64,000 bases of DNA, taken from assembly GCF_963921235.1 (NCBI RefSeq), contig NC_086097.1:89282001-89346000 (forward strand), in the 5' to 3' direction. The translations under genes were made by a program, and so were the position numbers. Origin of the DNA: Mobula hypostoma. Lineage: Eukaryota. Numbering within the stretch: position 1 is the first letter of the stretch; the number at the start of each line of letters is the position of its first letter. Shown one piece after another: positions 3,030-63,539 of this stretch. The notes under the pieces were generated by a model, which saw only the letters and a list, made by a program, of their open reading frames with translations, ran no database searches and was not told the DNA's origin.

Positions 3030-3345
3030 TTGAACATAGAAACAGGCCCTTCATCCCACTGAGTCCATGCTGACATCGACTACCTATTCACTCTAATCCT
3101 ATATTGATCTCAATTCTCTCATGTTCTCATCAGTTTTCCCGCAGATTCTACTCCTCACCTACGCTTTTAGGGGGCAGTTTACAGTGTCCAGTTAGCCTAC
3201 CCAGCATTCCACCCTGGGAATGTGGGGGAGAAACCAGAACAAGCCAATGTGATCACAGGGCAAGTGAGCAAACTCCCAGACCGACGGCGTTGGCGGTCAG
3301 CGTCAACCTGGGGCCGCGGAGCTCTGAGGCAGTCACCCTACTGAG
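3030..3345 (-). mobile_element. tRNA-derived SINE with CR1-like tail (V-SINE/HE1-like), degraded
   Basis: ggggcagtttacagtg...gtgggggagaaaccaga...cacagggcaagtgagcaaactcc pattern shared with copies at 17025, 18103, 40903 and 56220. Confidence 0.65.
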
Positions 3346-3542
3346 CAACACACACAAATGTGAAGGAACTGAGAAGGTCAGGCAGCTTTTATGGAAATAA
3401 ATAAACAATTGTCGTCTCGGGCTGAGACCGTTCTTCAGGCTGCTCCACTAATTGTGCCGCATAAAAGGGGTTTCTCATAGGCCATCTCTGACCGTATTTA
3501 GCATGAATGCCATCCAATGATATGCTTTGCTACTTTAAAGTC

Positions 3543-3954
3543 AGTGTGTGTGTGTGTGTGTGTGTGTGCGTGTGTGCGTGTGTGCGTGTGTGTGCGTGTG
3601 TGTGTGTGTGTGTGTGCGTGTGTGTGTGTGTGCGTGTGTGTGCGTGTGTGTGTGTGCGTGTGCGTGTGTGTGTGCGTGCGTGTGTGTGTGTGCGTGTGTG
3701 TGTGTGTGTGTGTGCGTGTGTGTGTGCGTGTGTGTGTGTGTGTGTGCGTGTGTGTGTGTGTGTGTGTGCGTGTGTGTGTGCGTGTGTGTGCGTGCGTGTG
3801 TGTGCGTGTGTGTGTGTGCGTGTGTGTGTGTGCGTGCGTGTGTGTGTGCGTGTGTGTGTGCGTGGGTGTGTGTGTGCGTGTGTATGTGCGTGTGTGCGTG
3901 TGTGTGTGTGTGCGTGTGTGTGTGTGCGTGTGTGTGTGTGTGCGTGTGTGCGTG

Positions 3955-3986
<32 letters not shown>

Positions 3987-4443
3987 CGTGTGTGTGTGTG
4001 CGTGTGTGTGTGCGTGTGTGTGCGTGTGTGTGTGTGCGTGTGTGTGTGCGTGCGTGTGTGTGTGTGCGTGTGTGTGTGTGTGTGCGTGTGTGTGTGTGTG
4101 TGTGTGCGTGTGTGTGTGTGTGTGCGTGTGTGTGCGTGTGTGTGTGTGTGTGTGTGCGTGTGTGTGTGTGCGTGTGTGTGCGTGTGTGTGTGTGCGTGTG
4201 TGTGTGTGCGTGCGTGTGTGTGTGCGTGTGTGTGTGCGTGGGTGTGTGTGTGCGTGTGTATGTGCGTGTGTGCGTGTGTGTGTGTGTGCGTGTGTGTGTG
4301 TGCGTGTGTGTGTGTGTGCGTGTGTGCGTGTGTGTGTGTGTGCGTGTGTGTGTGTGCGTGTGTGTGTGTGTGCGTGTGTGTGTGTGCGTGTGTGCGTGTG
4401 TGTGTGTGTGCGTGTGTGTGTGTATGGGTGTGTGTGTGTGTAT

Positions 4444-4487
<44 letters not shown>

Positions 4488-4510
4488 GTGTGTGTGTGTA
4501 TGGGTGTGCA
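3543..4510. repeat. ~970-bp compound (TG)n/(TGCG) microsatellite
   Basis: Directly visible; generates six spurious VC/HT ORFs. Confidence 0.98.
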
Positions 4511-5154
4511 CACATGCACACCAAGGTCTTCACCCATTACATTATGCCACCTTTCTATCTCGCTATGGTGATCACTGAGATTTTGTTTGATCAGCCTACA
4601 TGTGCCGTATCCTGTGGCATGCGTATATGATGTATTCGGGTCTCCTTAGCCAATGTACGTTCAGCACAACGTGTTGTACCTGCTGTATGCTGGGTAATAG
4701 AGCTTCCAGTACAAGTTACTGGGCACGATCAATTATCTGATGTTTCTAATAAACTGATGTGCTGGTTTGATAGGAATCTAATGGCAATCAATTCCCGGAA
4801 CTTCATAAATGGCAGATCAGAGGGAAAACTGTATTTTTAATTTCCCCAGATGTTTAGGAGAAAGCTGAAAGCTGTTTCCATGGTGAAGTTTCAAAGTACA
4901 AAGCTGCTTTTCTTGGCCTGTCTCGCCCTCGCTTATTTCCTGTTAAGTGCCAGTTGCTATGCACTGAAATGGTTCCGCTGGAGTGGGGCAGCATTTGTGT
5001 GGGAATAGCCTGGGGATGAGATGGGAGAGCTGGAACGAGAAGGCAGGAGGGGAGTGGTTGACCATAATGATTGTTTCCTGAGGCAATAGACGCAAGGGTC
5101 TTTAGCCACACAAGTTTTCAAATTTGTATGAAATGAGAAGCTACAGTCTAAGGG

Positions 5155-23500: not shown

Positions 23501-25791
23501 TTGGATTGTCTCCTCTCCGCTCAGAACCTTCTGACTCTGACACTCTGACCTGCTGTCATTGGTGCATTCCAGCTAAGGCTTCCTTACTGCATTTTATGCC
23601 TCTTCTTGTAAACTGACAAGAGTCCAGACCACTTGTGAGCTTACTTGATTTGTGATTAATCACAAATTTATTAGTCTCGTGCCAGCCCTGCCTCCACCTA
23701 CAAACCACATTGCCCCATCCCCCCACTCTTCCATCAGGTATTCTCCTCCCTTCTGGTTGGCAGATATCCTTGGGTGGAGAGGGGAGAGGTTGATTACTAT
23801 GGGGGGGGGCATTGGGTTAAGTTGCAGTGCGGGTTTGGGAGAGGGCAGTTGTGTTGCTAGGGGACGGGGCTACCTAACTATCAGGAGGCTTCTTAACACT
23901 TTGCTGAGCTCAGGCAGACTGGAGTAAAAAGTAATGCTAATGTTTTACTGGTCCAGGAAGTTGAGTTTGATCCTGAACTCGAGTCCAATCTGTGTGGAGC
24001 TCAGTACCAATACATACACAAGCAGTGTTTTGATCTCTGTCAGTTTAATGCCCGGTAACTTCATTACAAGTTTCACATTGTAAAGAAATGTGGGAAAAAG
24101 AATTTCAACCAAACATAGAAATGGAGTTTAAGTGGAGACCACAAGTCGACATTTTGTTTTGTTTTGACACCCTGTACCTGGAAGAAAAGTGTAAACGGGG
24201 AGTAGTTAACATAAAGAGATGAGGTAGGGGCTGACAGGTGATGGGTGGGACTGAGTGAGGATGCAGGTGATGAGCAGATGGAGCTGGGAGGGGCTGAAGT
24301 GGGAAACAGTGGCTCGTAGATGAGAAAGACGAAGCGAGAGAGAACAAAGGAGTGGGGAGGGGGGGTGAAGAGAGGTAGAGACAGATGCTGGCAGGTGAAG
24401 TGGAGACAAGAGGCTTCAGATGCCTCTCCGAAACTTCTACGGAGGATTTGATGTCAGAGGGTACAAACGTGGTAGACACATTAATGTATCAACGATTGCT
24501 GGTCAACCAAGATTGGCATTCCTAAACATTAGGAATATAATTTATTCAATTGTGCTCTCTCTCTCTTATCATATGTTAAAACGAGGAACTAGGTCCTCGA
24601 GTAAATCACTCAGACCAACAAGCCTGCCCCACTATTTAAGAACATAAGAACAAAAGAAACAGGAGCAGGAGTCGGCCATCAGGCCCGTTGAGCCTGCTCC
24701 GCCATTCAATAAGATCATGGCTGATCTGATCATGGGCTCATCTCCACCGACCTGCCGTTTTCCCATAACCCTTAATTCCTCTACAATGCAAAAATCTATC
24801 CAAACTTGTCTTAAATATATTTACTGAGGTAGCCTCCACTGCTTCATTGGGCAGAGACTTCCACAGATTCACCATTCTTTGGGAAAAGCAGTTCCTCCTC
24901 ATCTTTGTCCCAGATTTACTCTCCTGAATCTTGAGGTTACATCCCCTAATTCTAGTTTCATCTATCACTGGAAAAAACTTTTCTGCCTCTATCTTATCTA
25001 TCCCTTTCATAATTTTATGTGCTTCTGTATGATTTTCTCTCATCCTTCTGAATTCCAGCAAGTATAGTCCCTTGCGACTCAATCTCTCCTGATAGTCTAA
25101 CCCCTTCATCTCTGGAATCAACCCCGGTGAACCTCCTCTGTACCACCTCGAAAGCCAGTATATCCTTCCTCAAGTAAGGAGACCAGAACTGCACACAGTA
25201 CTCCAGGTATGGCCTCACCAGTACCCTATACAATTGCAGCATAATCTCCCTGCTTTTAAATTCAATCCCACTAGCAATTAAGGCTAACATTCATTTGCCT
25301 TCTTGGTAGCCTGCTGTACCTACAAACCAACCTTTTGTGATTCATGCACAAGCACTCCCAAGTCCCTCTGCACAGCAGCATGCTGCAATCTTCTACCATT
25401 AAATAATAATCTGATCTTCCATTTTTCCTTCCAAAGTGGATGACCTCACATTTACCAACATTGTATTCCTTTTGCCAGATCCTTGCCCACTTACTTAACC
25501 TATCTTTATCTCTCTGCAGACTCTCTGTATCTTCTGCACAATTTGCTTTTCTTCTCAATTTATTGTCATCAGCAAACTTAGATGCGCTACACTCAGCTCC
25601 CTCTTCCAGGTCGTTAATGTATATCATGAACAGTTGCGGACCCAGCACCAAACCCTGTGGCACACCGCTCACCACTGATTGCCGACCAGAGAAACATACC
25701 TATGTATCCCAATTCTTTGCTTCCTATTAGTTAACCAATCCTCTATCCATGCTAGTACATCACCCCCAACTCTATGCATCATCTTATGGAT

Positions 25792-25859
25792 CATCTAACG
25801 CATGCATTTCTAAATGAAAATAAACGGGGACTGAGTGTCCTCATAATCTAATCTAATCT
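25792..25859 (+). mobile_element. Very short LINE 3' end with (taatc)n tail inserted in CR1
   Basis: aataaa followed by gtgtcctcataatctaatctaatct; CR1 sequence resumes on both sides. Confidence 0.55.
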
Positions 25860-26118
25860 AAATCTTGTATGTGGCTCCTTATCGAATGCCTTCTGGAAAT
25901 CCAAGTAAATAACAGCCATCTATTCCCCTCTATCCACAGCACTCGTTATATCCTCAAAGAACTCCAGTAAGTTTGTCAAACAGGACCTTCCTTTGCTGAA
26001 TCCATGCGGCATCTGCCTGATGGATCCATTTCTTTCCAGATGCCTCACTATTTCTTCTTTAATGATAGCTCCAAGCATTTTCCCAACTACAGATGTTAAA
26101 GTAACTGGCCTATAGTTA

Positions 26119-26266
26119 ACACGAGGAAATCCGCAGATGCTGGAATTTCAAGCAACGCTCTTCTTTCAGTTAGTCCTGATGAAGGGTCTCGGCCTGAAAC
26201 GTCGACTGTACCTCTTCCTAGAGGTGCTGCCTGGCCTGCTGTGTTCACCAGCAACTTTGATGTTTG
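26119..26266 (+). mobile_element. 148-bp Penelope-derived insertion with 13-bp TSD
   Basis: TSD tggcctatagtta at 26106-26118 and 26267-26279; body nearly identical to 61640-61750. Confidence 0.9.
26172..26207 (+). ncRNA. Minimal type I hammerhead ribozyme (Penelope-associated)
   Basis: Stem I AGUC/GACU, core CUGAUGA, stem II AGG/CCU, GAAAC, GUC cleavage triplet. Confidence 0.8.
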
Positions 26267-27101
26267 TGGCCTATAGTTACCTGCCTTTTGCCTACATCCT
26301 TTTTTGAGCAGTGATGTGACATTAGCCTTCTTCCAGTCCATTGGGAGAAGTCCAGAGAATTTTGGTAAATTATCACCAAACCCTCTATTATAACCTCTGC
26401 TATTTCTTTCAGTACCCTGAGATACATTCCATAAGGATCAGGGATTTGTCTATCTTTAGGCCCTCAAGTTTGCTCAGCATTATCTTTAATGATAGCTACT
26501 GCATTGAGGTCCTCACCTCTCATCACATTTATATCATCTCTCTTCAGTTTGTTAGATGTGTCCTCCACCATGAAGACTGACACAAAATAGTCATTCAAAG
26601 CCTCGACCATTTCCTCATTACCCAATATCAATGTTCCCTTCTCGTCCTCCAAGGGACTTGCGTTCACTTTCGGCACCCTTTTCCACTTTATATAATTATA
26701 TAAACTTCTACTATACATTCTTATATTTTTTTCCCTTTACAATTCCTAATCTCTACCCAGTGGAATTCAACATTCTGCTTTTTAGATCTTTTATCGTCTC
26801 TCACAATCGCCCTGATCTCATCCTTAATTAAGAATGCTACCCCACCTCCCTTACCTTCTTGCCTATCCTTCAGTATTAACTGATATCCTTGAATATCTAA
26901 TTCCCAATCCTCTCCACCCTGCAACCATTTAATATGGCTGATGTGCCTTATGCCTTTGGGAGTCCAGGTTTTGGACAAGAAGTGACTGCTGGGTTTGCTC
27001 TGAGATTGGAAAGTAGGCCCACATAGTTTCTAATGAACCATAGAACGTAAAAGGTGAAATCCTGCCAGATTTGTGACTTGTAAAAGATGACTCTTTATAG
27101 A

Positions 27102-27181
27102 CAGGATTCCCAACCTTTTTTTATGCCGCGAAGCCCTTCCGTTAACTGAGGGGTCTGTAGACCCCAGGTTGTTGACCGGTG
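27102..27181. mobile_element. hAT/Charlie-like MITE (~80 bp)
   Basis: Ends caggattcccaacc / ggttgttgaccggtg; ctttataga duplicated at 27093-27101 and 27182-27190. Confidence 0.7.
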
Positions 27182-28566
27182 CTTTATAGAGTGAGCATAC
27201 TGTCTGTAAAATCAGCTGTTGTGTTACTTTCAAGAATGGGCATTACACAGCAGTGCCTGCCACATGCTATCAGACTTCTCAAGGTCATGAATTGCAGTAA
27301 ATAAATAGACATACTTTAAAGTGTGCTAGATTTTCCTGCTTTAAAGTTGCATGCATGCAGCAAGACTCCAAGGTGACACTAAGGTAAGTGTATAGAAATT
27401 TGTTCACTAGGTGCTATAGTGTCTCCACTAGACCAGCTGCATGGTTCCAGGTGCTGTAATGTCTGTTGAGAAATTAATTTTTTTTTTCCTAGCGGGTTTG
27501 TCCTCCCAAGCATTTTCTGTGCAATGAACTCCCCCACCCCCAGCCCCTTCCATTGTGAGGTTGAAGGTATTGCAACATTCAAAGCTTGTTTGCAGAGCGA
27601 TTTTAAACAAACAATGTTTGTTCTGTACTCACAGAGCAGCCTGGATTTACGAAGGCTGCTTCCTCTCAAGCTGTGCTTTTTTAATGTTTGATGCTCAACC
27701 TGCATCCTTTGTCATTGGTGAGATGGGAGACCTTATACAGGATCACACCTCAGTCTCACGTGCACCAGGAATGTTCTGTTGAAGTCACCTTCAACTTCAC
27801 GATCAGCTGCTACTGCTTTCTACTGTGTCTCTGTGCAAGTATGTGCATTAATAGGGATGCATTTGGCCTGATGATCAATGATTGGCCATGTCAGTCATTG
27901 TAAAGATCTATTTAAAGGTAAAAACTTCTCAGAGGCAAAAGATTTAGGGCAAAAATGTTAGAGATTAAAACCCTGGCATTGAAGGCACAACTAGTAACAG
28001 TAGAACAATGAAATACCAGTCAGAATAGGAAGGTAGTTTAGATGACTGGCGTGGGTTATGGAGAATTGTGGGGGTGTAGTGGGGGGGGGGTGGGGAAGAG
28101 TCTGCAGAGGAATTTGAAAAAAGTGTTGTTATAAGTGTGAACCAGCGTATGGGATAAGAATGGGGCTAATGTGTGAATGGGGAATGGGAACTGGTATAAA
28201 TTAGGGCCACATTGCATAGACAAGCCCAGTTTTATGGCAATCGAAAAGGGCAGGCATTAGTGTGTTGGACTAGCCTGTGTTATAACAAGGGCATGGACGA
28301 GAGTGTCAGCAGTTGAGGCGGGAGGTCAGGAGCTCTGTCATACAATACATGGCCTTTGACCTCCTCTTGTCGACACAGCATTTACATGCCAGATCAGTTG
28401 AGTTTCAGTTCAGTGATTCTTGTTGATTACGAGTTGCAGTGCTGGTAACATTTTTGAAAGTCAAGAGTGATTGGACTTTCCCTTGGAGATTATCACATGT
28501 GGTGCAATTTATTTGTCCTTGTTCAGGTTGGTGCTGGCTCCCAGAGATGCCTATGAGATGGCTTTT

Positions 28567-29769: not shown

Positions 29770-31945
29770 ACCAGCTCCCTGCCCCCTCTCTGAGGCAGAG
29801 CATTCTGCCCTCTGTAAGGGCCTCACTTTTGTCTCCCTGCGCCCATACCTCAGTGAGTTCTGCGCCTGCGATGATGCTGAGTTCTTCTTCTGTTGCCTCC
29901 GTCTCCGAGCCTACTTCTTTTGCAAGGACTTTCCAACCCGCATCGATGATCCTTTCTCCCGTCTTCAACCCTCTTCCTCTTCCTGGACAACCTGCCCTGG
30001 TCTTCTGCCTGCTATGGACCTTTTCATTGCCAACTGCCGATGGGACCTTAGCAGTCTAGACTTCAACACTCCTCTCTCCAATTCCACCTTGCTCCTTCCA
30101 AGCGCTCGGCTCTCCACGCCCTCCGCACTAATCCTAACCTCACCATCAAACCCGCAGATAAGTGAGGTGCTGTAGTAGTTTGTCAGACTCACCTCTACCT
30201 TGCTGAGGCCCAGCGGCAACTCTCAGACACGTTCTCTTACTTGCCCCTCGAACAGGACCCACTGAGGAACACCAGGCCATTATCTCCCACACCATCACCA
30301 AACTTACTGACTCTGGGGATCTCCCATCCACTGCCACCAACCTCATAGTTCCCGCACCCCACCCCTCCTGTTTCTACCTCCTACCCAAGATCCACAAACT
30401 TGTTTGTCCCTGTAGACCCACTGTTTCAGCTTGTTCCTGCCCCACTGAACTCATATCAGCATACCTTGACTCTGTTTTATCCCCCCAACTTCAGTCCCTT
30501 CTTACCAACATCCGTGACACTTCACACACTCTTGATTTTTTCAATGATTTCAGGTTTCCTGGCCCCCATCATCTTATTTTAACTATAGATGTCCAGTCCC
30601 TATACACCTCCATCCCCCACCAGGAAGGCCTCAAGGCTCTGTGTTTTTTTCTGGACAGCAGACCCATCCAGTTCCCCTCTGCTACCACTCTCCTCCACCC
30701 AGCGGAACTTGTTCTCACTCTCAGTAATTTCTCCTCCCACCTCCTTCAAACAAAAGAGGTAGCCATGGGCACTCGCATGGTCCCAGCTGTGCCATCCTGT
30801 TTGTCAGCTACGTGGAACAGTCTGTGTTCCAAGCCTACACCGGTGACCATCCCGTACTTTTCCTACGCTACATCAACAACTGCATTAGTGCTGCTTCCTG
30901 CACCCATGCTGAATTTGTCAACTTCATCAACTTTGCCTCCAACTTCCACCCTGCCCTCAAATTCACCTGGTCCATTTCTGACACCTCCCTCCCCTTTCTC
31001 AATCTCCCTGTCTCTATCTCCAGATGCAGCTTATCCACCAATGTCTATTACAAACCCATGGACTCTCTCAGCTACCTGGACTACACCTCCTCCCACCCTG
31101 TTACTTGTAAAAATGCCATCCCCCCAGGGCCGGCTGGTAGCGCCATGATATCAGCGCTGGACCCAGGAGCGGAGGTTCCCGGGTTCGAAACCAGTTGGGT
31201 CGGCTTCTGAGTACGCTTTCCATCCGTGCCGGGTTGAGTGTCAAGATTGCAACTCGACCTTGTAAAATAAAAAAGGGAAAAATACTGCGAAAATATCTGC
31301 GTGAGGAGTGGCACACCACACAGTCTCTCTCTCGCTCTGCACCTTGTAAAAGCCATGAAAAAGACATCATCACAGACGCACGCACACGCGCAGATGTGCA
31401 CGCATGCACGCAGGCACATGCCAAAAGAAAAATGCCATCCCTTCTCTCAATTTCTCCATCTCAGTCGCATCTGCTCGCAGGATGAGACTTTTTATTCTGG
31501 AATATTTTCATCCTTTTTCAAAGAAAGGGGCTTCGCTTCCTCCACCATCAACACTGCTCTCAACTACATTTATTCTATGTCATGCACGTCAGCTCTTACC
31601 CCATCCTCCCTGCCACCCTACCAGGGATAAGGTTCCTCTTGTCCTCACCTACCACCCCACCAGCCTTCGTGTCCAGCACACTCTGCAGCTTCTGCCACCT
31701 CCAATGGGATCCCACCACCAAGCACGTCTTTCCCTCACCCCCACTTTCTGCTTTCCACAGGGATCGCTCCCTATGCGACTCCCTTGTCCATTCGTTCCTC
31801 CCCACTGATCTCCCTCCTGGCACTTATCCTTGCAAGCAGAACAACTGCTACACCTGCCCCTACACCTTCTCCCTCACTACCATTCAGGGCCCTAAACAGT
31901 CCTTCCAGTGAGGCGACACTTCACTTGTGAGTCTTTTGGGGTCAT
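29770..31945 (+). mobile_element. Penelope-like element, frameshifted RT to start of GIY-YIG region
   Basis: LSEAEHSALCKGLTFV; MGTRM; FLRYINN (degenerate YIDD); FHPALKFT; YLDYTSSHP; PGTYPC..CYTCPY. Confidence 0.9.
31123..31427 (+). mobile_element. tRNA-derived SINE with 14-bp TSD inside the Penelope element
   Basis: B box ggttcgaaacc; TSD aaaaatgccatccc at 31109-31122 and 31428-31441. Confidence 0.88.
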
Positions 31946-42126: not shown

Positions 42127-42574
42127 GGAGTCAATTTTAGAAAACCTAGCACATTTATTTTTCCTACAATTACACACTTAGTCCAGCGGTCGTGGAGCAT
42201 ACGGATCCCTTCTTTGTAGAAGTCAGCGTCTTGGACCTCCAGAAGTGGTCCACAGCAGGGGTGATTGATAAGTTTATGGCCTAAGGTGGAAGGAGATGAG
42301 GAGAAACATCAAACTTTCTGCATTTTCACTCAAAGAGTTGAACTGCACATGCATGTAACAGGAGCTGTATAACACATCTCCTTCTACCCAAGGCCACAAA
42401 CTTATCAATCACCCCTGCTGTGGACCACTTATACAAAGAAGGGATCCGTATGCTCCACGACCGCTGGACTAAGTGTGTAAATGTAGGAGGCAACTTTGTT
42501 GAAAAATAAATGTGCTAGGTTTTCTAAAATTGACTCCTTCTACCTTAGGCCACAAACTTATCAATCACCCCTTG
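42127..42574. mobile_element. Palindromic mariner-derived MITE
   Basis: Mariner C-terminus YKEGIRMLHDRWTKCVNVGGNFVEK* near 42432-42509 plus an inverted copy; TIR ends ...cttatcaatcaccccttg followed by TA. Confidence 0.88.
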
Positions 42575-45795: not shown

Positions 45796-46807
45796 CAAAT
45801 CTCTGTAACCATTGTAACAACGAGAGCTAAAGTCAAAATAAACATAAATGGAATTGATAGCTACTGAGAAATGTGGTTGGGAATTTGATATTCCAGCAAA
45901 CTGAACCTTTAGAATAAGCAGGCAAACTTGAAAATAAAACATGAGGCTGCATATGCTGGAATCTGGAGTAGCTACCGTAAAGCCGGGGGAAGATGGAGGG
46001 ATCTGGACAGTTGATATTTCATGCTGAGACCCTGCAGAGTGAGTCTGGGTGGGAATGCGACTGAAGGGCAGCAAAGCAGCAGAAATCAGGGGGGGTAAGT
46101 GAGAGTGTCTCACAGAACTCCTGTCAAAAAGAGAAGGAAAACCTCCTCCAAGAGGCCATATCTTGAAGTACTCCTTCACAGTGGAGAGGCAAAAAGGGAG
46201 AGAGACGCAAGAGACTACAGATGCTGAAATCTGGAACAACAGACAAAAGCTTAGAGAAACTCAGCAGATCTGGGAGTGTCTGTAGAGGGAAATGACCAGT
46301 TGCTGCCTCTAATTGAAACTGAAAAATGAAGTGGAGAAGTCCTAATATTAAAGAATGGAATAAAGGTTATCAGGAGGAAGGATCAAAGCTCAGAAAACCC
46401 AGTGATATTAAAGGATGTGAGGAGCTCAGAAACAGTAAGTAACAGAAGGGAATGGGTGGAAGTTTTCTATGGGAACCCCAGCCATGAAGATTGATTCCTG
46501 GGACGGTGGGCTTTTTGGCTGAGGACACATTAAGCAATCTGAGTCTATGCAGCCATGATTTTAAAAGAGTGAAGTGCACAGAAGGATAGGTGCCAAAAGT
46601 TGATGCTTCCCCTGACTGGGGCGCTTGAACCTGAGAGTCAGACTCAAAGTAAAGGATCGGCCATTCAGGATAATGAAAAGGAATTTCTTCACTGATGCCT
46701 GGTGAACCTTTGAAACTCTTCACCTGACAATCTGTGGAGGCTGTCACTGAGTATATCCAAACAAGAGAGCAAACTTCTTTAAGTACTAAAGAAATGCAGA
46801 ATATAGT

Positions 46808-58382: not shown

Positions 58383-58592
58383 AGGGTCTGTTCATCCAAA
58401 CACAAAGCCCAGAAAAGGCTGGGGAAAACCGAGACAGCCCACTGGAGCATCAAGCCAACTCAAGATGCACCTCTTCATCTTCTGCAGCTGCTGCTGATTG
58501 GATGGTCCGTCACCTTCGACCTTTGCACTTCGGCCTTTGTGCAAGCAACACTCAGTGCTATCAGAAGCAAGCTGCAAGGCGAGCTGCCCAAG
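58383..58592 (+). other. Candidate exon (210 nt); ATG gives MVRHLRPLHFGLCASNTQCYQKQAARRAAQ plus phase 1
   Basis: Donor AAG|GTGAGG at 58593; modest acceptor tttcctgcatcgttag; two frames open; non-repetitive sequence. Confidence 0.35.
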
Positions 58593-58729
58593 GTGAGGAA
58601 ATGGGAACCTTTGAGGGCTGAGGTGGTTGGATGTGGTCATGGCTTGAAGACCCATTCCAGAAATCCAGGCCAGCAGTTAAGAGTATCATTTTTAAGCTGA
58701 GTTGTTAAACTATTAATTGAGTAGAATGA

Positions 58730-58920: not shown

Positions 58921-60697
58921 TGCCACTGTTTTTCATGGGAACTGCGGGTCAGTAAGAACCATTTATGAGGTGCGTACTGCAGAATACATTATTAAACCAC
59001 AGTTGGTCTAAGGTATAAAGGAAACGTGTAGAAACAGTCATTTAAATGCCATGGAAGTTGAATTGAGATTAGGTTACATGCTAGTTTATAGGCAACGTTC
59101 TTTGTACTTTTCCTGTGTTTTATCCCTGGGTTTCTGATTACATGCTAGAAATAATAAGGTCAGTCTGAAATGCACAAAGTATTTCTGTTCAGTGTTATAA
59201 CACCTGCTTCTTATGGGCTGACTACTACCTCATTTCCTTTTCCCACTTGGTCGTTTGAGTCAGCATTATTTCCAGGGTTGGCGATGAAACCCAGGTACAA
59301 AGAGACAGGACCAACAGGCCTATTAGTTGCATTCATGCTCCCCCTACCACCCTCTTGAGGGTGGCACCGTTCTGGCTTCTCTGGCCCTAATGAACTGGCA
59401 TTGTGCCAGCCTATATCCTGCAGCCTCCAACGGCTCACTGGTAGCAGCTTTGGGTTACATGGGAGTTTTTAGGCGACATTCTTTGCACGGTTCCTTGCCT
59501 CAGTCAGGAAGATGTGAGCTTAAGTCTTGAGCCCATATTCCACACTGTCGGATTTCCATCTTTTTGAACAACACAGCCTTTTAGAGCTTAGACATCAGAA
59601 TTAAATGTTGATTAGTTGGCCACATTGCATTTTCTGTTTCGTGTGTGTGTGTATGCATGAGTGAGAGGCGCAATTTCCTTTTGAAAATTGGTTACTATTA
59701 AATGTTTTTCCTCTGCCCTCTGAAGCAGTGCATTCCACAGCAAACAGCTGTGTTTTCAGAAGAGAAACCTTCTGTATGCCTCCTTGCCAGCTTCCTTAAC
59801 CCTGTACGCTCTGGTTACTGACCGATCTACAGTAGGGATCGTTCCTCTCTGTTTGCTCTATCAATGCCTGGTGTAACTTCGATCTCCTGTTGTTAAACCT
59901 CCTTCATTCTTCTCTCATTCAAGGAGAACAATCACATCTTTTCATAACCCATCTACAAGATCATTCATTCTCGCTTAACCCCAAGCCATCCCTGAGGTTT
60001 CATAGTGTATTGGGAGCCACTAACTCTTTGGTGAGTTGGGGTGGGGGTGGAGCTGCTAGTTAGATGTTAGAATATAAACTATTTTCACATGGATGGATAT
60101 CTCCCCTCATCCGAAAGACACCCTGATCTCATTACAGCCTACTGGGAGGGACTTTACGAGGGCTACCATCCTCTGACATCAACCCCCCTGTGCACTTCCC
60201 TAAGGAACCTCTGCAAGGGTAGGCAGTGGTTGTCCTTAGCAGATGCCACTGGAGATGTGCCATGTTCAATTTTGTATTTGTCCTAGTATTAGTTAAGGAC
60301 AGAATTCTGTGACCTCTAGTGCTGTTCACTTAGCTGGCCTGCCTCCATGCACTCTCCAATGGATACCTCTGAAGCCAGTGCCTTCAGGAGAAGATGAAGG
60401 GCAATTGCAAGGGATTTTAGAATTAAATGAGTGCATCATATTGTGGTGGATTAAGTTATGAAGATAGGTTACAACAACCTGTCTTCTGTTGCTTGAGGGT
60501 GGTAGATGTAGGAGAGGTGGGGATGATGCTGGGATCCATAACGAAAGATGTAATGCAGAACACTTGGAGAAGAATAATAGGATTGAATGGGATCAACATG
60601 GATTTATGAAAGGAAAATCATATTTGACCACTGGCGTACTTTTGAGGATGTGATTAGAAGAATAGATGATAGGGAAACCAGTGGATATGGTATATTT

Positions 60698-61750
60698 GTA
60701 CATCTGCTCTCACTCCATCCTCCCGCCACCCCACTAGGAATAGGGTTCCCCTGGTCCTCACCTACCACCCCACCAGCCTCCGGGTCCAACATATTATTCT
60801 CCGTAACTTCCGCCACCTCCAACGGGATCCCACCACTAAGCACATCTTTCCCTCCCCCCCTCTCTCTGCATTCCGCAGGGATCACTCCCTACACAACTCC
60901 CTTGTCCATTCGTCCCCTCCATCCCTCCCCACTGATCTCCTTCCTGGCACTTATCCGTGTAAGCGGAACAAGTGCTACACATGCCCTTACACTTCCTCCC
61001 TTACCACCATTCAGGGCCCCAAACAGTCCTTCCAGGTGAGGCAACACTTCACCTGTGAGTCGGCTGGGGTGATATACTGCGTCCGGTGCTCCCGATGTGG
61101 CCTTTTATATATTGGCGAGACCCAACGCAGACTGGGAGACTGCTTTGCTGAACACCTACGATATGTCCGCCAGAGAAAGCAGGATCTCCCAGTGGCCACA
61201 CATTTTAATTCCACATCCCATTTCCATTCTGACATGCCTATCCATGGCCTCCTCTACTGTAAAGATGAAGCCACACTCAGGTTGGAGGAACAACACCTTA
61301 TATTCCGTCTGGATAGCCTCCAACCTGATGGCATGAACATCAACTTCTCTAACTTCCGCTAATGCCCCACCTCCCCCTTGTACCCCATCTGTTACTTATT
61401 TTTATACACACATTCTTTCTCTCACTCTCCTTTTTCTCCCTCTGTCCCTCTGAATATACCCCTTGCCCATCCTCCGGGTCCCCCCACCTTGTCTTTCTTC
61501 CCAGACCTCCTGTCCCATGATCCTCTCGTATCCCTTTTGCCTATCACCTGTCCAGCTCTTGGCTCTATCCCTCCCCCTCCTGTCTTCTCCTATCATTTTG
61601 GATCTCCCCCTCCCCCTCCAACTTTCAAATCCCTTACTCACTCTTCCTTCAGTTAGTCCTGACGAAGGGTCTCGGCCTGAAACGTCGACTGCACCTCTTC
61701 CTAGAGATGCTGCCTGGCCTGCTGCGTTCACCAGCAACTTTTATGTGTTG
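60698..61750 (+). mobile_element. Young Penelope-like element 3' part with intact GIY-YIG coding segment
   Basis: GVIYCVRCSRCGLLYIGETQRRLGDCFAEH..VATHFN..RLEEQHLIFRL..PDGMN; pyrimidine-rich UTR; hammerhead. Confidence 0.95.
61655..61690 (+). ncRNA. Minimal type I hammerhead ribozyme
   Basis: AGUC CUGACGA AGG gucucgg CCU GAAAC GUC GACU. Confidence 0.8.
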
Positions 61751-61867
61751 TTTGGATTTTCAAGACATTTTATAAGGTCCGAAACAGAAAGTTGGTCAAT
61801 GAGATTAGAGCACATGGAATTAGGGGTTAATATGCCCAGCAGAATCTGTTACTGGAGTGGAATTATA

Positions 61868-62655
61868 AACACAAGAAAGTCTACCGATGCAGGAAATCCA
61901 AAGTGAGACACAAAAAATGCTGAATGAGCTTAGCAGGTCAGGCAGCATCTATGGAAATTAATAAACAGTCAACGTTTCGGGCTGAGACCCTTCTTCAGGA
62001 CTGAAAAAGATGGGGGAATATGCCAGAATAAAAAGTTGGGGGGAGGGAAAGGAGGAGAGCTAGAGGTAATAGGTGAAGCTAGGTGGGTGGGAAAGGTAAG
62101 GGGCTGGAGAAGAACGAGATGAGAGAGGAGTGTGGACCATGGGAGAAGGGGAAGGAGGAGGTGACCCAAGCTGAAGTGATAGGTACATGAGAAGAGGTAA
62201 GAGTCAGAGTCGGGAATAGAAGAGGGGAGTGGGAGGGAAGTTTTTTTTTAATGAGGAGAAATCGAAATTTATGCCATCAGGTTGGAGGCTACCCAGATGG
62301 AATATAAAGTATTGCTGCTCTACCCTGAGGGTAGCCTCAACTTGGCACAAGAGCAGGCCATGGCCCGACATATCGGAACTAAAATGTTTGGCCAGTAGGA
62401 AGTTCCACTTTTGGCAGATGGAGTGGAGATACTCAACGAGGCGGTCCCCCAATTTACAATGGGTCTCACCGATGTAGAGGAGTCTGCATCGGGAACACCA
62501 GACACAACAGACAGCCCCCAGCAGATTCGCAGGTGATGTATTGCCTCACCTGGAGGGGCTGTGAATGGAGGTGAGAGAGGAGGTGAACGGGCACTTAGAA
62601 TGCTTGCAGGGAGGGACAAATGGATAAGGGAATCATAGAGGGGAGTGGGGGGAAG
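61868..62655 (-). mobile_element. Penelope-like element 3' part, older
   Basis: GDRLVEYL..LRVEQQYFIFHLGSLQPDGIN. Confidence 0.85.
61966..62003 (-). ncRNA. Minimal hammerhead ribozyme variant
   Basis: Minus strand CAGUC CUGAAGA AGGGUCUCAGCCC GAAAC GUU GACUG. Confidence 0.65.
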
Positions 62656-63539
62656 TAAAGATATATTTAGTGGTAGGATATGTTCAGTGGAATTAAATGG
62701 AGCCTTCTCAAACTGGCAGGCTGTGACTGGTATGGTACTGTAAGGATCATTGCTTGGGCCCCAGCTGCCCATGACATGTGTCAAAAAGGTTGCATAGAGG
62801 ATCAAATGCCAAATTTCTAAGTTTGCTGATGCTACAGTTTTAGTTGGGTGTGTGAGGATGAAGGAGCGTGTGAGGACACATGGACAAACTGAGTATGTGG
62901 GTGAAAACATGGCAGATGGAATATAGTGTAGGAAAATCTGAGGTCAACCACTTATGTACATTAAAGAAAAAAAGCATATTAAATGGTGAGAGATTGCATA
63001 GTCCAGAAGTTCAAAGGAACCTGGGTGGTCTTGGACTGAATGCCAAAAGTCAGGTGCAGGATGAGATGAGAATTCATTGAAGCTAACAACATTCTTAAAG
63101 TGCTTAACAGGCTGGATGCAGCAAGAATTGAGGAAGGCAAGTGTTATGGTAACCTTTCTTAGGAGAGGATTTGAACACAGGAATAATGCAATAACGGAGA
63201 GGCTTTGTAAAACCACATCCAAGGGTCAAAGGTTCATTTTATTGTCAAAGTATGCATGTACAATACAACTCTGGTATTCGTCTTCTCCAGACAGCTATGA
63301 AATAGAGGGGAAAAAACTGTGGGAGTTGTCGAAAGGAAATGTATCAAGCCCCTCCCTCGCAAAAAAAGTGACAATAACATCAAACCCCCAACTCCCCCCT
63401 CACAAAAAAAAGGACTACACCATGGAGTTTTATTCTTTACCTAAGAAAGGACGCGTTTGCAATAGGGTCAGTGCAGTGAGGAGTCACTGCCCAAGCTGCA
63501 AAGTTAGCAGCTTTGTCACATGAGGAGAAATTGAATAGA

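What the first reader, a model, noticed from the sequence alone, without database searches (positions are those of the whole stretch)
26106..26279. 148-bp ribozyme-only mobile insertion with inverted end and 13-bp TSD
Seen: no coding sequence, just ~38 nt of the distal Penelope end in inverted orientation (compare 61868-61905) joined to a hammerhead-containing segment, between perfect TSDs inside a CR1. Inference: either an extreme 5'-truncated/inverted Penelope integration or a retrozyme-like non-autonomous family that spreads a ribozyme.
Basis: partly seen in the sequence, partly recalled or inferred. Interest (0 to 1): 0.7.

Follow-up and report, generated by a model that had tools for sequence, protein, structure and literature searches.

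The report
Tiny Penelope stub with flipped tail
This 148-base insert is the end of a very common jumping gene (a Penelope-like element) with its last 38 bases flipped to the front; it is likely a one-off, dead copy made when both cut ends of the target DNA started copying the same RNA, rather than a new self-spreading ribozyme.

Summary
A 148-bp insert (26119-26266) lies between perfect 13-bp duplications in a dead CR1-type LINE. Relatives' contigs show the empty site with one 13-mer (10-17 contigs in each of 4 runs). The insert is 110 nt of a Penelope-like element (PLE) end, carrying a minimal hammerhead, preceded by the reverse complement of the 38-nt 'tail' that normally follows it. The two arms abut on the template with about 1 nt overlap and no loss: twin-priming geometry. 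An inverted arm, a 30-40-nt one-sided tail and a TSD are the published PLE insertion pattern. In vitro, a PLE enzyme extends both nicked strands from two sites bracketing the tail (PMC11167929). Retrozyme features fail: single copy, no tandem, hammerhead fold about 12 kcal/mol above the optimum. The junction does not recur in the window, nor among the 32 listed of 76,683 pieces from four runs of relatives (weak test). The own genome was not available, so recurrence is not excluded. This scan has already reported short inverted PLE insertions many times in this genome. Verdict: ordinary PLE stub, a clean limiting case (tail-only arm). Interest 0.17.

The parts
26106..26118 (+). Left target-site duplication, 13 bp, part of the host LINE ORF2 (encodes NYRP on the minus strand)
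   Evidence: empty site with one copy in relatives' contigs
26119..26156 (-). Arm A: the 38-nt PLE 'tail' only, inverted relative to arm B
   Evidence: loose ends at 26156 (X10, 66 contigs) and 26267 (X1, 245 contigs)
26157..26157 (.). Internal junction base G; matches neither the tail's continuation (A) nor the upstream pLTR base (A at 61640; T in the X1 loose-end consensus)
26158..26266 (+). Arm B: 5'-truncated pLTR end of the PLE, ending at the inner edge of the tail
   Evidence: 94% over 106 nt to 61641-61746; profile hit, model 3-106
26171..26208 (+). Minimal type-I hammerhead motif: stem I 26171-75/26204-08, CUGAUGA 26176-82, unpaired A26183, stem II 26184-87/26192-95 closed by G.U, GAAACGUC 26196-203, predicted cut 26203/26204
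   Evidence: architecture as in PMC4209133; no Rfam hit
26267..26279 (+). Right target-site duplication, 13 bp, identical to the left
24738..27029 (-). Host: degraded CR1-type LINE ORF2 with many stops and frameshifts, split by the insert; ends approximate
   Evidence: RVT_1 E 1.5e-7 at 25274-25699
60697..61752 (+). Longer copy of the same PLE family: C-terminal GIY-YIG endonuclease with CX4CxxC linker and CxxC between GIY and YIG, then pLTR with hammerhead, no tail; reference for arm B
61866..62685 (-). Older PLE copy with ribozyme and tail contiguous; candidate 12-bp TSD with one mismatch; reference for arm A

Best explanation
The insert is a 5'-truncated end of a Penelope-like retrotransposon with its 38-nt tail inverted, inside a 13-bp duplicated target, and it likely arose in a single event in which both cut DNA ends primed copying of the same RNA. 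Inferred steps: (1) The element's GIY-YIG endonuclease cut the LINE DNA with a 13-nt stagger leaving 3' overhangs. (2) One 3' end primed at the outer end of the tail and copied 38 nt. (3) The other primed at the inner edge of the tail and copied 110 nt, through the uncut hammerhead. (4) The first cDNA stopped where the second primer sat. (5) End joining fused the two cDNAs, leaving one unmatched base, and fill-in made the TSD. Shown: the geometry, the TSD, the empty site, and that the two arms are contiguous on the template. The copy is probably dead: no ORF, one ribozyme, tail in the wrong orientation.
For: Arms abut on the template: normal copies continue from 26267 into TGCTTGAA (X1, 245 contigs, agreement 0.44) and from 26156 into the reverse of arm B's end (X10, 66 contigs, agreement 0.71). 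So arm A starts on the last base of arm B, give or take 2 nt in a TG run. This is the twin-priming layout described for L1 (PMC2837659, passages). PLE insertions often have an inverted 5'-truncated copy and a one-sided 30-40-bp tail (PMC8557442, passages; PMC3846280, passages). Purified anole PLE protein nicks and extends both strands, starts at two internal sites that bracket the tail, and uses uncut RNA (PMC11167929, parts 1-2 of 4). In the window, of 14 other profile hits with E<1e-4, 6 end at the tail's outer end (model 136-141), 7 near its inner edge (97-116) and 1 between (7 of the 14 were in the seed alignment). Arm B extends 47 nt upstream of the predicted cut, so it was copied from uncut RNA. 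Both primer ends are A opposite a template U, and 3 of the first 4 bases of the right TSD match the template (about 5% by chance; weak).
Against: n = 1: no genome-wide count of tail-only arms was possible. Two separate RNAs with a chance stop at 38 nt, or a later inversion, give the same sequence. The in vitro data come from a Poseidon-clade element whose pLTR overlaps the ORF start; this element has the Neptune/Nematis-type linker. PMC3846280 argues instead for self-priming on an antisense template to explain head-to-head inversions. There is no clear microhomology at the internal junction. Short contigs (under about 66 nt) spanning the junction could be hidden among the 76,651 pieces not shown.
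Confidence: 0.66

Rival explanations
1. Dual priming: one integration, but the two cut ends copied two different RNA molecules, and the tail-side cDNA happened to stop at the tail's inner edge (for example at an RNA structure or protein-bound site there).
For: PMC2837659 (passages) states that twin and dual priming cannot be told apart from such loci. Earlier scan notes report many inverted pairs whose arms overlap (untested here), so the first cDNA is often not blocked.
Against: The stop is within about 2 nt of the other arm's priming site. Under a rough uniform 20-300-nt length assumption this is about a 2% event, but the locus was picked out of many, so the argument is weak.
Confidence: 0.15
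2. A plain 148-nt minus-strand insertion (pLTR end plus tail) whose 110-nt part was inverted in place afterwards, or by a template switch or fold-back during second-strand synthesis.
For: The geometry is identical to twin priming (sequence). Self-priming has been proposed for PLE inversions (PMC3846280).
Against: Both breakpoints would have to fall exactly on the TSD edge and on the tail boundary, where 7 of 14 other window copies end. The TSD is intact, and there is no palindrome at the junction.
Confidence: 0.11
3. A retrozyme-like non-autonomous family with a fixed tail/pLTR junction that spreads the hammerhead using PLE machinery.
For: The core hammerhead letters are intact. Animal retrozymes derive from PLE pLTRs and occur in the one chondrichthyan sampled, with solo monomers (bioRxiv 10.64898/2026.07.22.740005, parts 1-2 of 5). 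The own genome could not be searched.
Against: No tandem repeat and a single hammerhead; retrozymes are defined by tandem units (PMC7229834; preprint). No second junction in the window. All 32 listed longest pieces from four runs start at or after 26157 and are 66-73 nt. The hammerhead-competent fold is -22.2 against -34.6 kcal/mol, and stem II closes with G.U. Re-copying from the tail end would not regenerate the fixed far end (inference).
Confidence: 0.05

Closest known systems
Insertion unit of endonuclease-bearing Penelope-like elements, Neptune/Nematis type (PMC8557442, passages incl. Fig. 2 legend; Pen2a_Av in PMC3846280, passages)
   Same: pLTR with hammerhead, inverted arm at the 5' side, one-sided tail of 30-40 nt (38 here), variable-length TSD, strong 5' truncation.
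   Different: No ORF sequence is left. The inverted arm is the tail alone, so there is no palindrome or inverted repeat; the cases I read have an inverted pLTR copy.
PAc (Poseidon of Anolis) in vitro mechanism (PMC11167929, parts 1-2 of 4)
   Same: Two reverse-transcription start sites bracketing the tail, both strands extended, uncut ribozyme RNA as template; this predicts the two outer ends seen here.
   Different: Different clade. The paper does not show both ends primed in one event or how the cDNAs join; it says later steps remain unvalidated.
L1 twin priming (PMC2837659, passages)
   Same: TSD-bounded insert with two opposed fragments of one RNA, a very short non-inverted 3' part, and an internal junction without clear microhomology.
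   Different: No poly(A), a different enzyme, and the second priming site appears to be a fixed site in the element rather than a chance internal match.
Non-LTR (animal) retrozymes (PMC7229834, passages; bioRxiv 10.64898/2026.07.22.740005, parts 1-2 of 5)
   Same: Short, non-coding, type-I hammerhead, PLE-pLTR related.
   Different: Not tandem, minimal rather than canonical hammerhead, internal inversion, no evidence of a family or of circular RNA.

Membership tests
EN+ Penelope-like element insertion | Sequence derives from the pLTR of an element with a C-terminal GIY-YIG endonuclease bearing the CCHH motif | tested here: met
   94% to 61641-61746, 3' of an ORF with GVIYCVRCSRC..YIG. Its homologue P0018 hits GIY-YIG at E 2.8e-6; the window ORF itself had no Pfam hit.
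EN+ Penelope-like element insertion | Hammerhead motif in the pLTR | tested here: met
   Core and stems by hand; Rfam silent
EN+ Penelope-like element insertion | 30-40-bp tail at one end only | tested here: met
   38 nt at one end
EN+ Penelope-like element insertion | Target-site duplication | tested here: met
   13 bp, perfect; empty site in relatives' contigs
EN+ Penelope-like element insertion | PLE-type reverse transcriptase in the parent element | not tested
   The copies examined are truncated; no RT phylogeny was built
Neptune/Nematis clade | CX2-5CxxC zinc finger in the RT-EN linker | tested here: met
   CKRNKCYTC in ORF 60673-61362; criterion from PMC8557442. It does not separate Neptune from Nematis.
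Twin-primed insertion (one RNA) | Inverted arm starts where the other arm ends on the template, inside one TSD | tested here: met
   About 1-nt overlap, no loss
Twin-primed insertion (one RNA) | Both arms shown to come from one molecule | not testable with these tools
   The arms do not overlap, so there are no shared variants to compare
Non-LTR retrozyme | Tandem repeat of at least two hammerhead-bearing units | tested here: not met
   No such array in 24000-28500; no other hammerhead hit with E<1e-4 between 18103 and 42875
Non-LTR retrozyme | Multi-copy family sharing the same unit, including the junction | tested here: inconclusive
   None in the window; none among 32 listed of 76,683 pieces; own genome unavailable
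Non-LTR retrozyme | Canonical type-I hammerhead with helix III and loop-loop contacts | tested here: not met
   Minimal motif with no helix III loop and a G.U closing pair; competent fold about 12 kcal/mol above the optimum
Non-LTR retrozyme | Expressed as unit-length linear and circular RNA | not testable with these tools
   No RNA holder listed for the locus; only assembled contigs were available

The most novel reading that the evidence does not exclude
Tail-only inverted arms are a recurrent, base-precise class: the cDNA started at the tail's outer end is stopped by the second primer at the tail's inner edge, so the Penelope enzyme primes both ends of one cut on one RNA at its two start sites. 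Ray-type genomes would then hold a countable natural record that settles an open step of PLE integration. The bolder reading, a self-spreading fixed-junction ribozyme element, is also not excluded (about 0.05).
Probability: 0.3. Interest if true: 0.45.

Novelty: new member of a known kind. Interest (0 to 1): 0.17.

Why it matters
As a single insertion it matters little: a dead stub in a dead LINE. Its value is as a clean test case. How PLEs build their inverted ends and one-sided tails is still described as unvalidated (PMC11167929; PMC8557442). An arm that is exactly the tail, abutting the other arm without loss, is what one-RNA, two-primer integration predicts. A listing-level search for 'twin priming' with 'Penelope' gave 3 papers, none about this by title or abstract start; subscription papers such as Arkhipova 2006 were not searchable. 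Other agents in this scan reached the same mechanism on larger samples from this genome, so this locus adds one limiting case.

Tried and rejected
Own-genome search: none held. Rfam: 0 hits at gathering score in the window; 3 chance hits at E<=10 in 26050-26350, none a hammerhead. Pattern scans for the ribozyme region: 0 in metagenome contigs and 0 in viral contigs. Sequencing runs: best share of words 0.34; no RNA holder listed, which is no evidence on expression. Two runs guessed to be RNA hold family pieces but nothing locus-specific. No listed piece spanned either laid stretch, so presence of this insertion in relatives is undecided. One search listed 4 joints, none from tail to pLTR at another truncation point; short sides are poorly detected, so variable truncation was neither shown nor excluded. 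Global folding: 110-nt arm z -2.45, whole insert z -1.52, and the optimal fold is not the hammerhead. A two-molecule cofold gave -29.1 kcal/mol but was not interpretable as the active dimer. The BLAST step failed on parameters and was not repeated; no clear TSD was found for the 60697 or 47358 copies. Host gene: 100 of 232 long stop-to-stop frames scanned against Pfam gave only RVT_1 and ALKBH8_N hits, the latter in or beside LINE remnants, so whether the insert lies in an intron is unknown. Earlier-findings look-up by sequence: nothing.

Full report
Observation. The sequence between 26106 and 26279 is as described. A 13-mer (TGGCCTATAGTTA) stands at 26106-26118 and 26267-26279 and nowhere else in the window on either strand; 148 nt lie between. 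Outside microsatellites, four exact 13-mer pairs at 60-400-nt spacing were visible in the window (output cut in the middle, within the microsatellite rows). The flanks are a degraded LINE ORF2 on the minus strand: the frame reads QKAGNYRP on one side and NYRPVTLTSVVGK on the other, and the left flank hits RVT_1 at E 1.5e-7. That it is CR1-type is recalled. Contigs from four runs of related organisms join 26105 to 26267 with 13 shared letters in 11, 13, 17 and 10 contigs (15 of 694 joints shown). The LINE family therefore has one copy of the 13-mer, and the duplication was made by the insertion.

What the insert is. Positions 26158-26263 are 94% identical over 106 nt to 61641-61746. That copy lies 3' of an ORF with a GIY-YIG endonuclease, a CxxC between GIY and YIG, and a CX4CxxC linker. 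Its best protein hit is 82% identical and named by its source as a Hypanus sabinus protein, among 40 hits from 147 candidates. A 44%-identical homologue hits Pfam GIY-YIG at E 2.8e-6; the window ORF itself gave no Pfam hit. By the criteria in PMC8557442 (passages) this is an endonuclease-bearing PLE of Neptune/Nematis type; no RT tree was built. Positions 26119-26156 are the reverse complement of the stretch that follows this segment in normal copies. Of 9 other window copies tested (chosen by eye, out of 14), 4 have a tail match at the expected place above 99.7% of 4,990 background windows, 1 is marginal (0.024) and 4 have none. In relatives, contigs leaving at 26267 continue into the tail (X1, 245 contigs, agreement 0.44), and contigs leaving at 26156 continue into the reverse of arm B's end (X10, 66 contigs, agreement 0.71) (24 of 3,049 loose-end rows shown). 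The two arms are thus neighbours on the template, overlapping by one base in the insert, with about 2 nt of uncertainty in a TG run.

The ribozyme. CUGAUGA (26176-82) and GAAACGUC (26196-203) are intact. There is a 5-bp stem I, an unpaired A, a 4-bp stem II closed by G.U, and a palindromic ACGU with no helix III loop. This is the minimal PLE hammerhead of PMC4209133 (parts 1-2 of 4), where a single S. mansoni motif showed no cleavage and multimers only low activity. The competent fold costs about 12 kcal/mol in the 110-nt arm (-22.2 against -34.6) and about 11 with flanks. Rfam does not detect it. Arm B begins 47 nt upstream of the predicted cut, so the template was uncut. Its start also lies about 15 nt upstream of 26172-26174, where many relatives' contigs leave the reference; that pile-up mixes truncation with subfamily divergence.

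Mechanism. Read on the minus strand, the insert is TSD, inverted 5' part, short 3' part, TSD, with the inverted part starting where the 3' part begins. That is the twin-priming layout (PMC2837659, passages). PLE insertions commonly carry an inverted truncated copy and a one-sided 30-40-bp tail (PMC8557442; PMC3846280). The anole PLE protein nicks and extends both strands and starts at two internal sites whose interval is the tail (PMC11167929). In the window, 14 other profile hits with E<1e-4 (16 of the 25 hits reach that level; 2 are this insert's arms) end bimodally: 6 at the tail's outer end, 7 near its inner edge, 1 between (7 of them seeded the profile). The insert has one arm at each site. 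I infer a 13-nt staggered cut, priming of both 3' ends on one uncut RNA, arrest of the tail cDNA at the second primer, and end joining with one unmatched base. Only the geometry is shown. Dual priming on two RNAs and a later inversion produce the same letters. PMC3846280 prefers antisense self-priming for head-to-head inversions.

Family or one-off. No second junction exists in the window and no tandem array surrounds the insert. On 26119-26230, four runs laid 29,167, 40,778, 3,806 and 2,630 contigs. The 32 longest or joint-bearing pieces listed of 76,683 are 66-73 nt and all start at or after 26157. A diverged family with this junction should have produced longer colinear pieces, but a short junction contig could be hidden. 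These runs also hold at most 0.34 of the locus's words, so they are probably not the source genome. The test is weak, and the own genome was unavailable. Retrozymes are defined by tandem hammerhead units (PMC7229834, passages; bioRxiv 10.64898/2026.07.22.740005, parts 1-2 of 5). That preprint also reports PLE-derived retrozymes and solo monomers in vertebrates, including one chondrichthyan, so the idea is not absurd; the defining feature is simply not met here.

Context in the scan. I stated my reading before the first look-up. Several earlier notes on this genome describe short inverted PLE insertions with a one-sided tail and reach two-primer integration; one reports a base-precise junction. 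These are unchecked AI notes and not independent support. One led me to PMC3846280.

Verdict. Real, well bounded, and an ordinary product of a known element: a new member of a known kind, interest 0.17. Its one useful feature is that the inverted arm is exactly the tail, which suggests a simple genome-wide count that could separate one-RNA from two-RNA priming.

Noticed in passing
window 60697-61752 (+) and 61866-62685 (-): Two PLE copies of different age lie tail-to-tail about 110 bp apart, apparently within LINE sequence; the second has a candidate 12-bp TSD with one mismatch.
   Followed up: partly
window 45936-46048 and 46202-46318 (-): Two old ribozyme-plus-tail ends on the same strand about 270 bp apart; possibly a partial tandem.
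   Followed up: no
window 31109-31440: A 13-bp direct repeat flanks about 306 nt that looks like a tRNA-derived SINE (resemblance recalled, untested).
   Followed up: no
window 42380-42570: A roughly 34-nt direct repeat at 156-nt spacing around a stretch resembling a mariner-type transposon end (resemblance recalled, untested).
   Followed up: no
window 26172-26174: In relatives' contigs, hundreds of records leave the reference at the front edge of the hammerhead's stem I (for example 914, 333 and 321 in X1); part truncation hot spot, part subfamily divergence.
   Followed up: partly
window 58383-58600: An exon-like open stretch ending at a GT donor-like site on the + strand; no Pfam hit, host gene not identified.
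   Followed up: partly
window 26195: The stem II closing base is T here and C in roughly 34-76% of summed depth in four relatives' runs, so many family copies have G.U instead of the conserved G-C pair.
   Followed up: no
window 3500-4650: A long imperfect (GT)/(GC) microsatellite of over 1 kb next to an old PLE end at 3343-3441.
   Followed up: no
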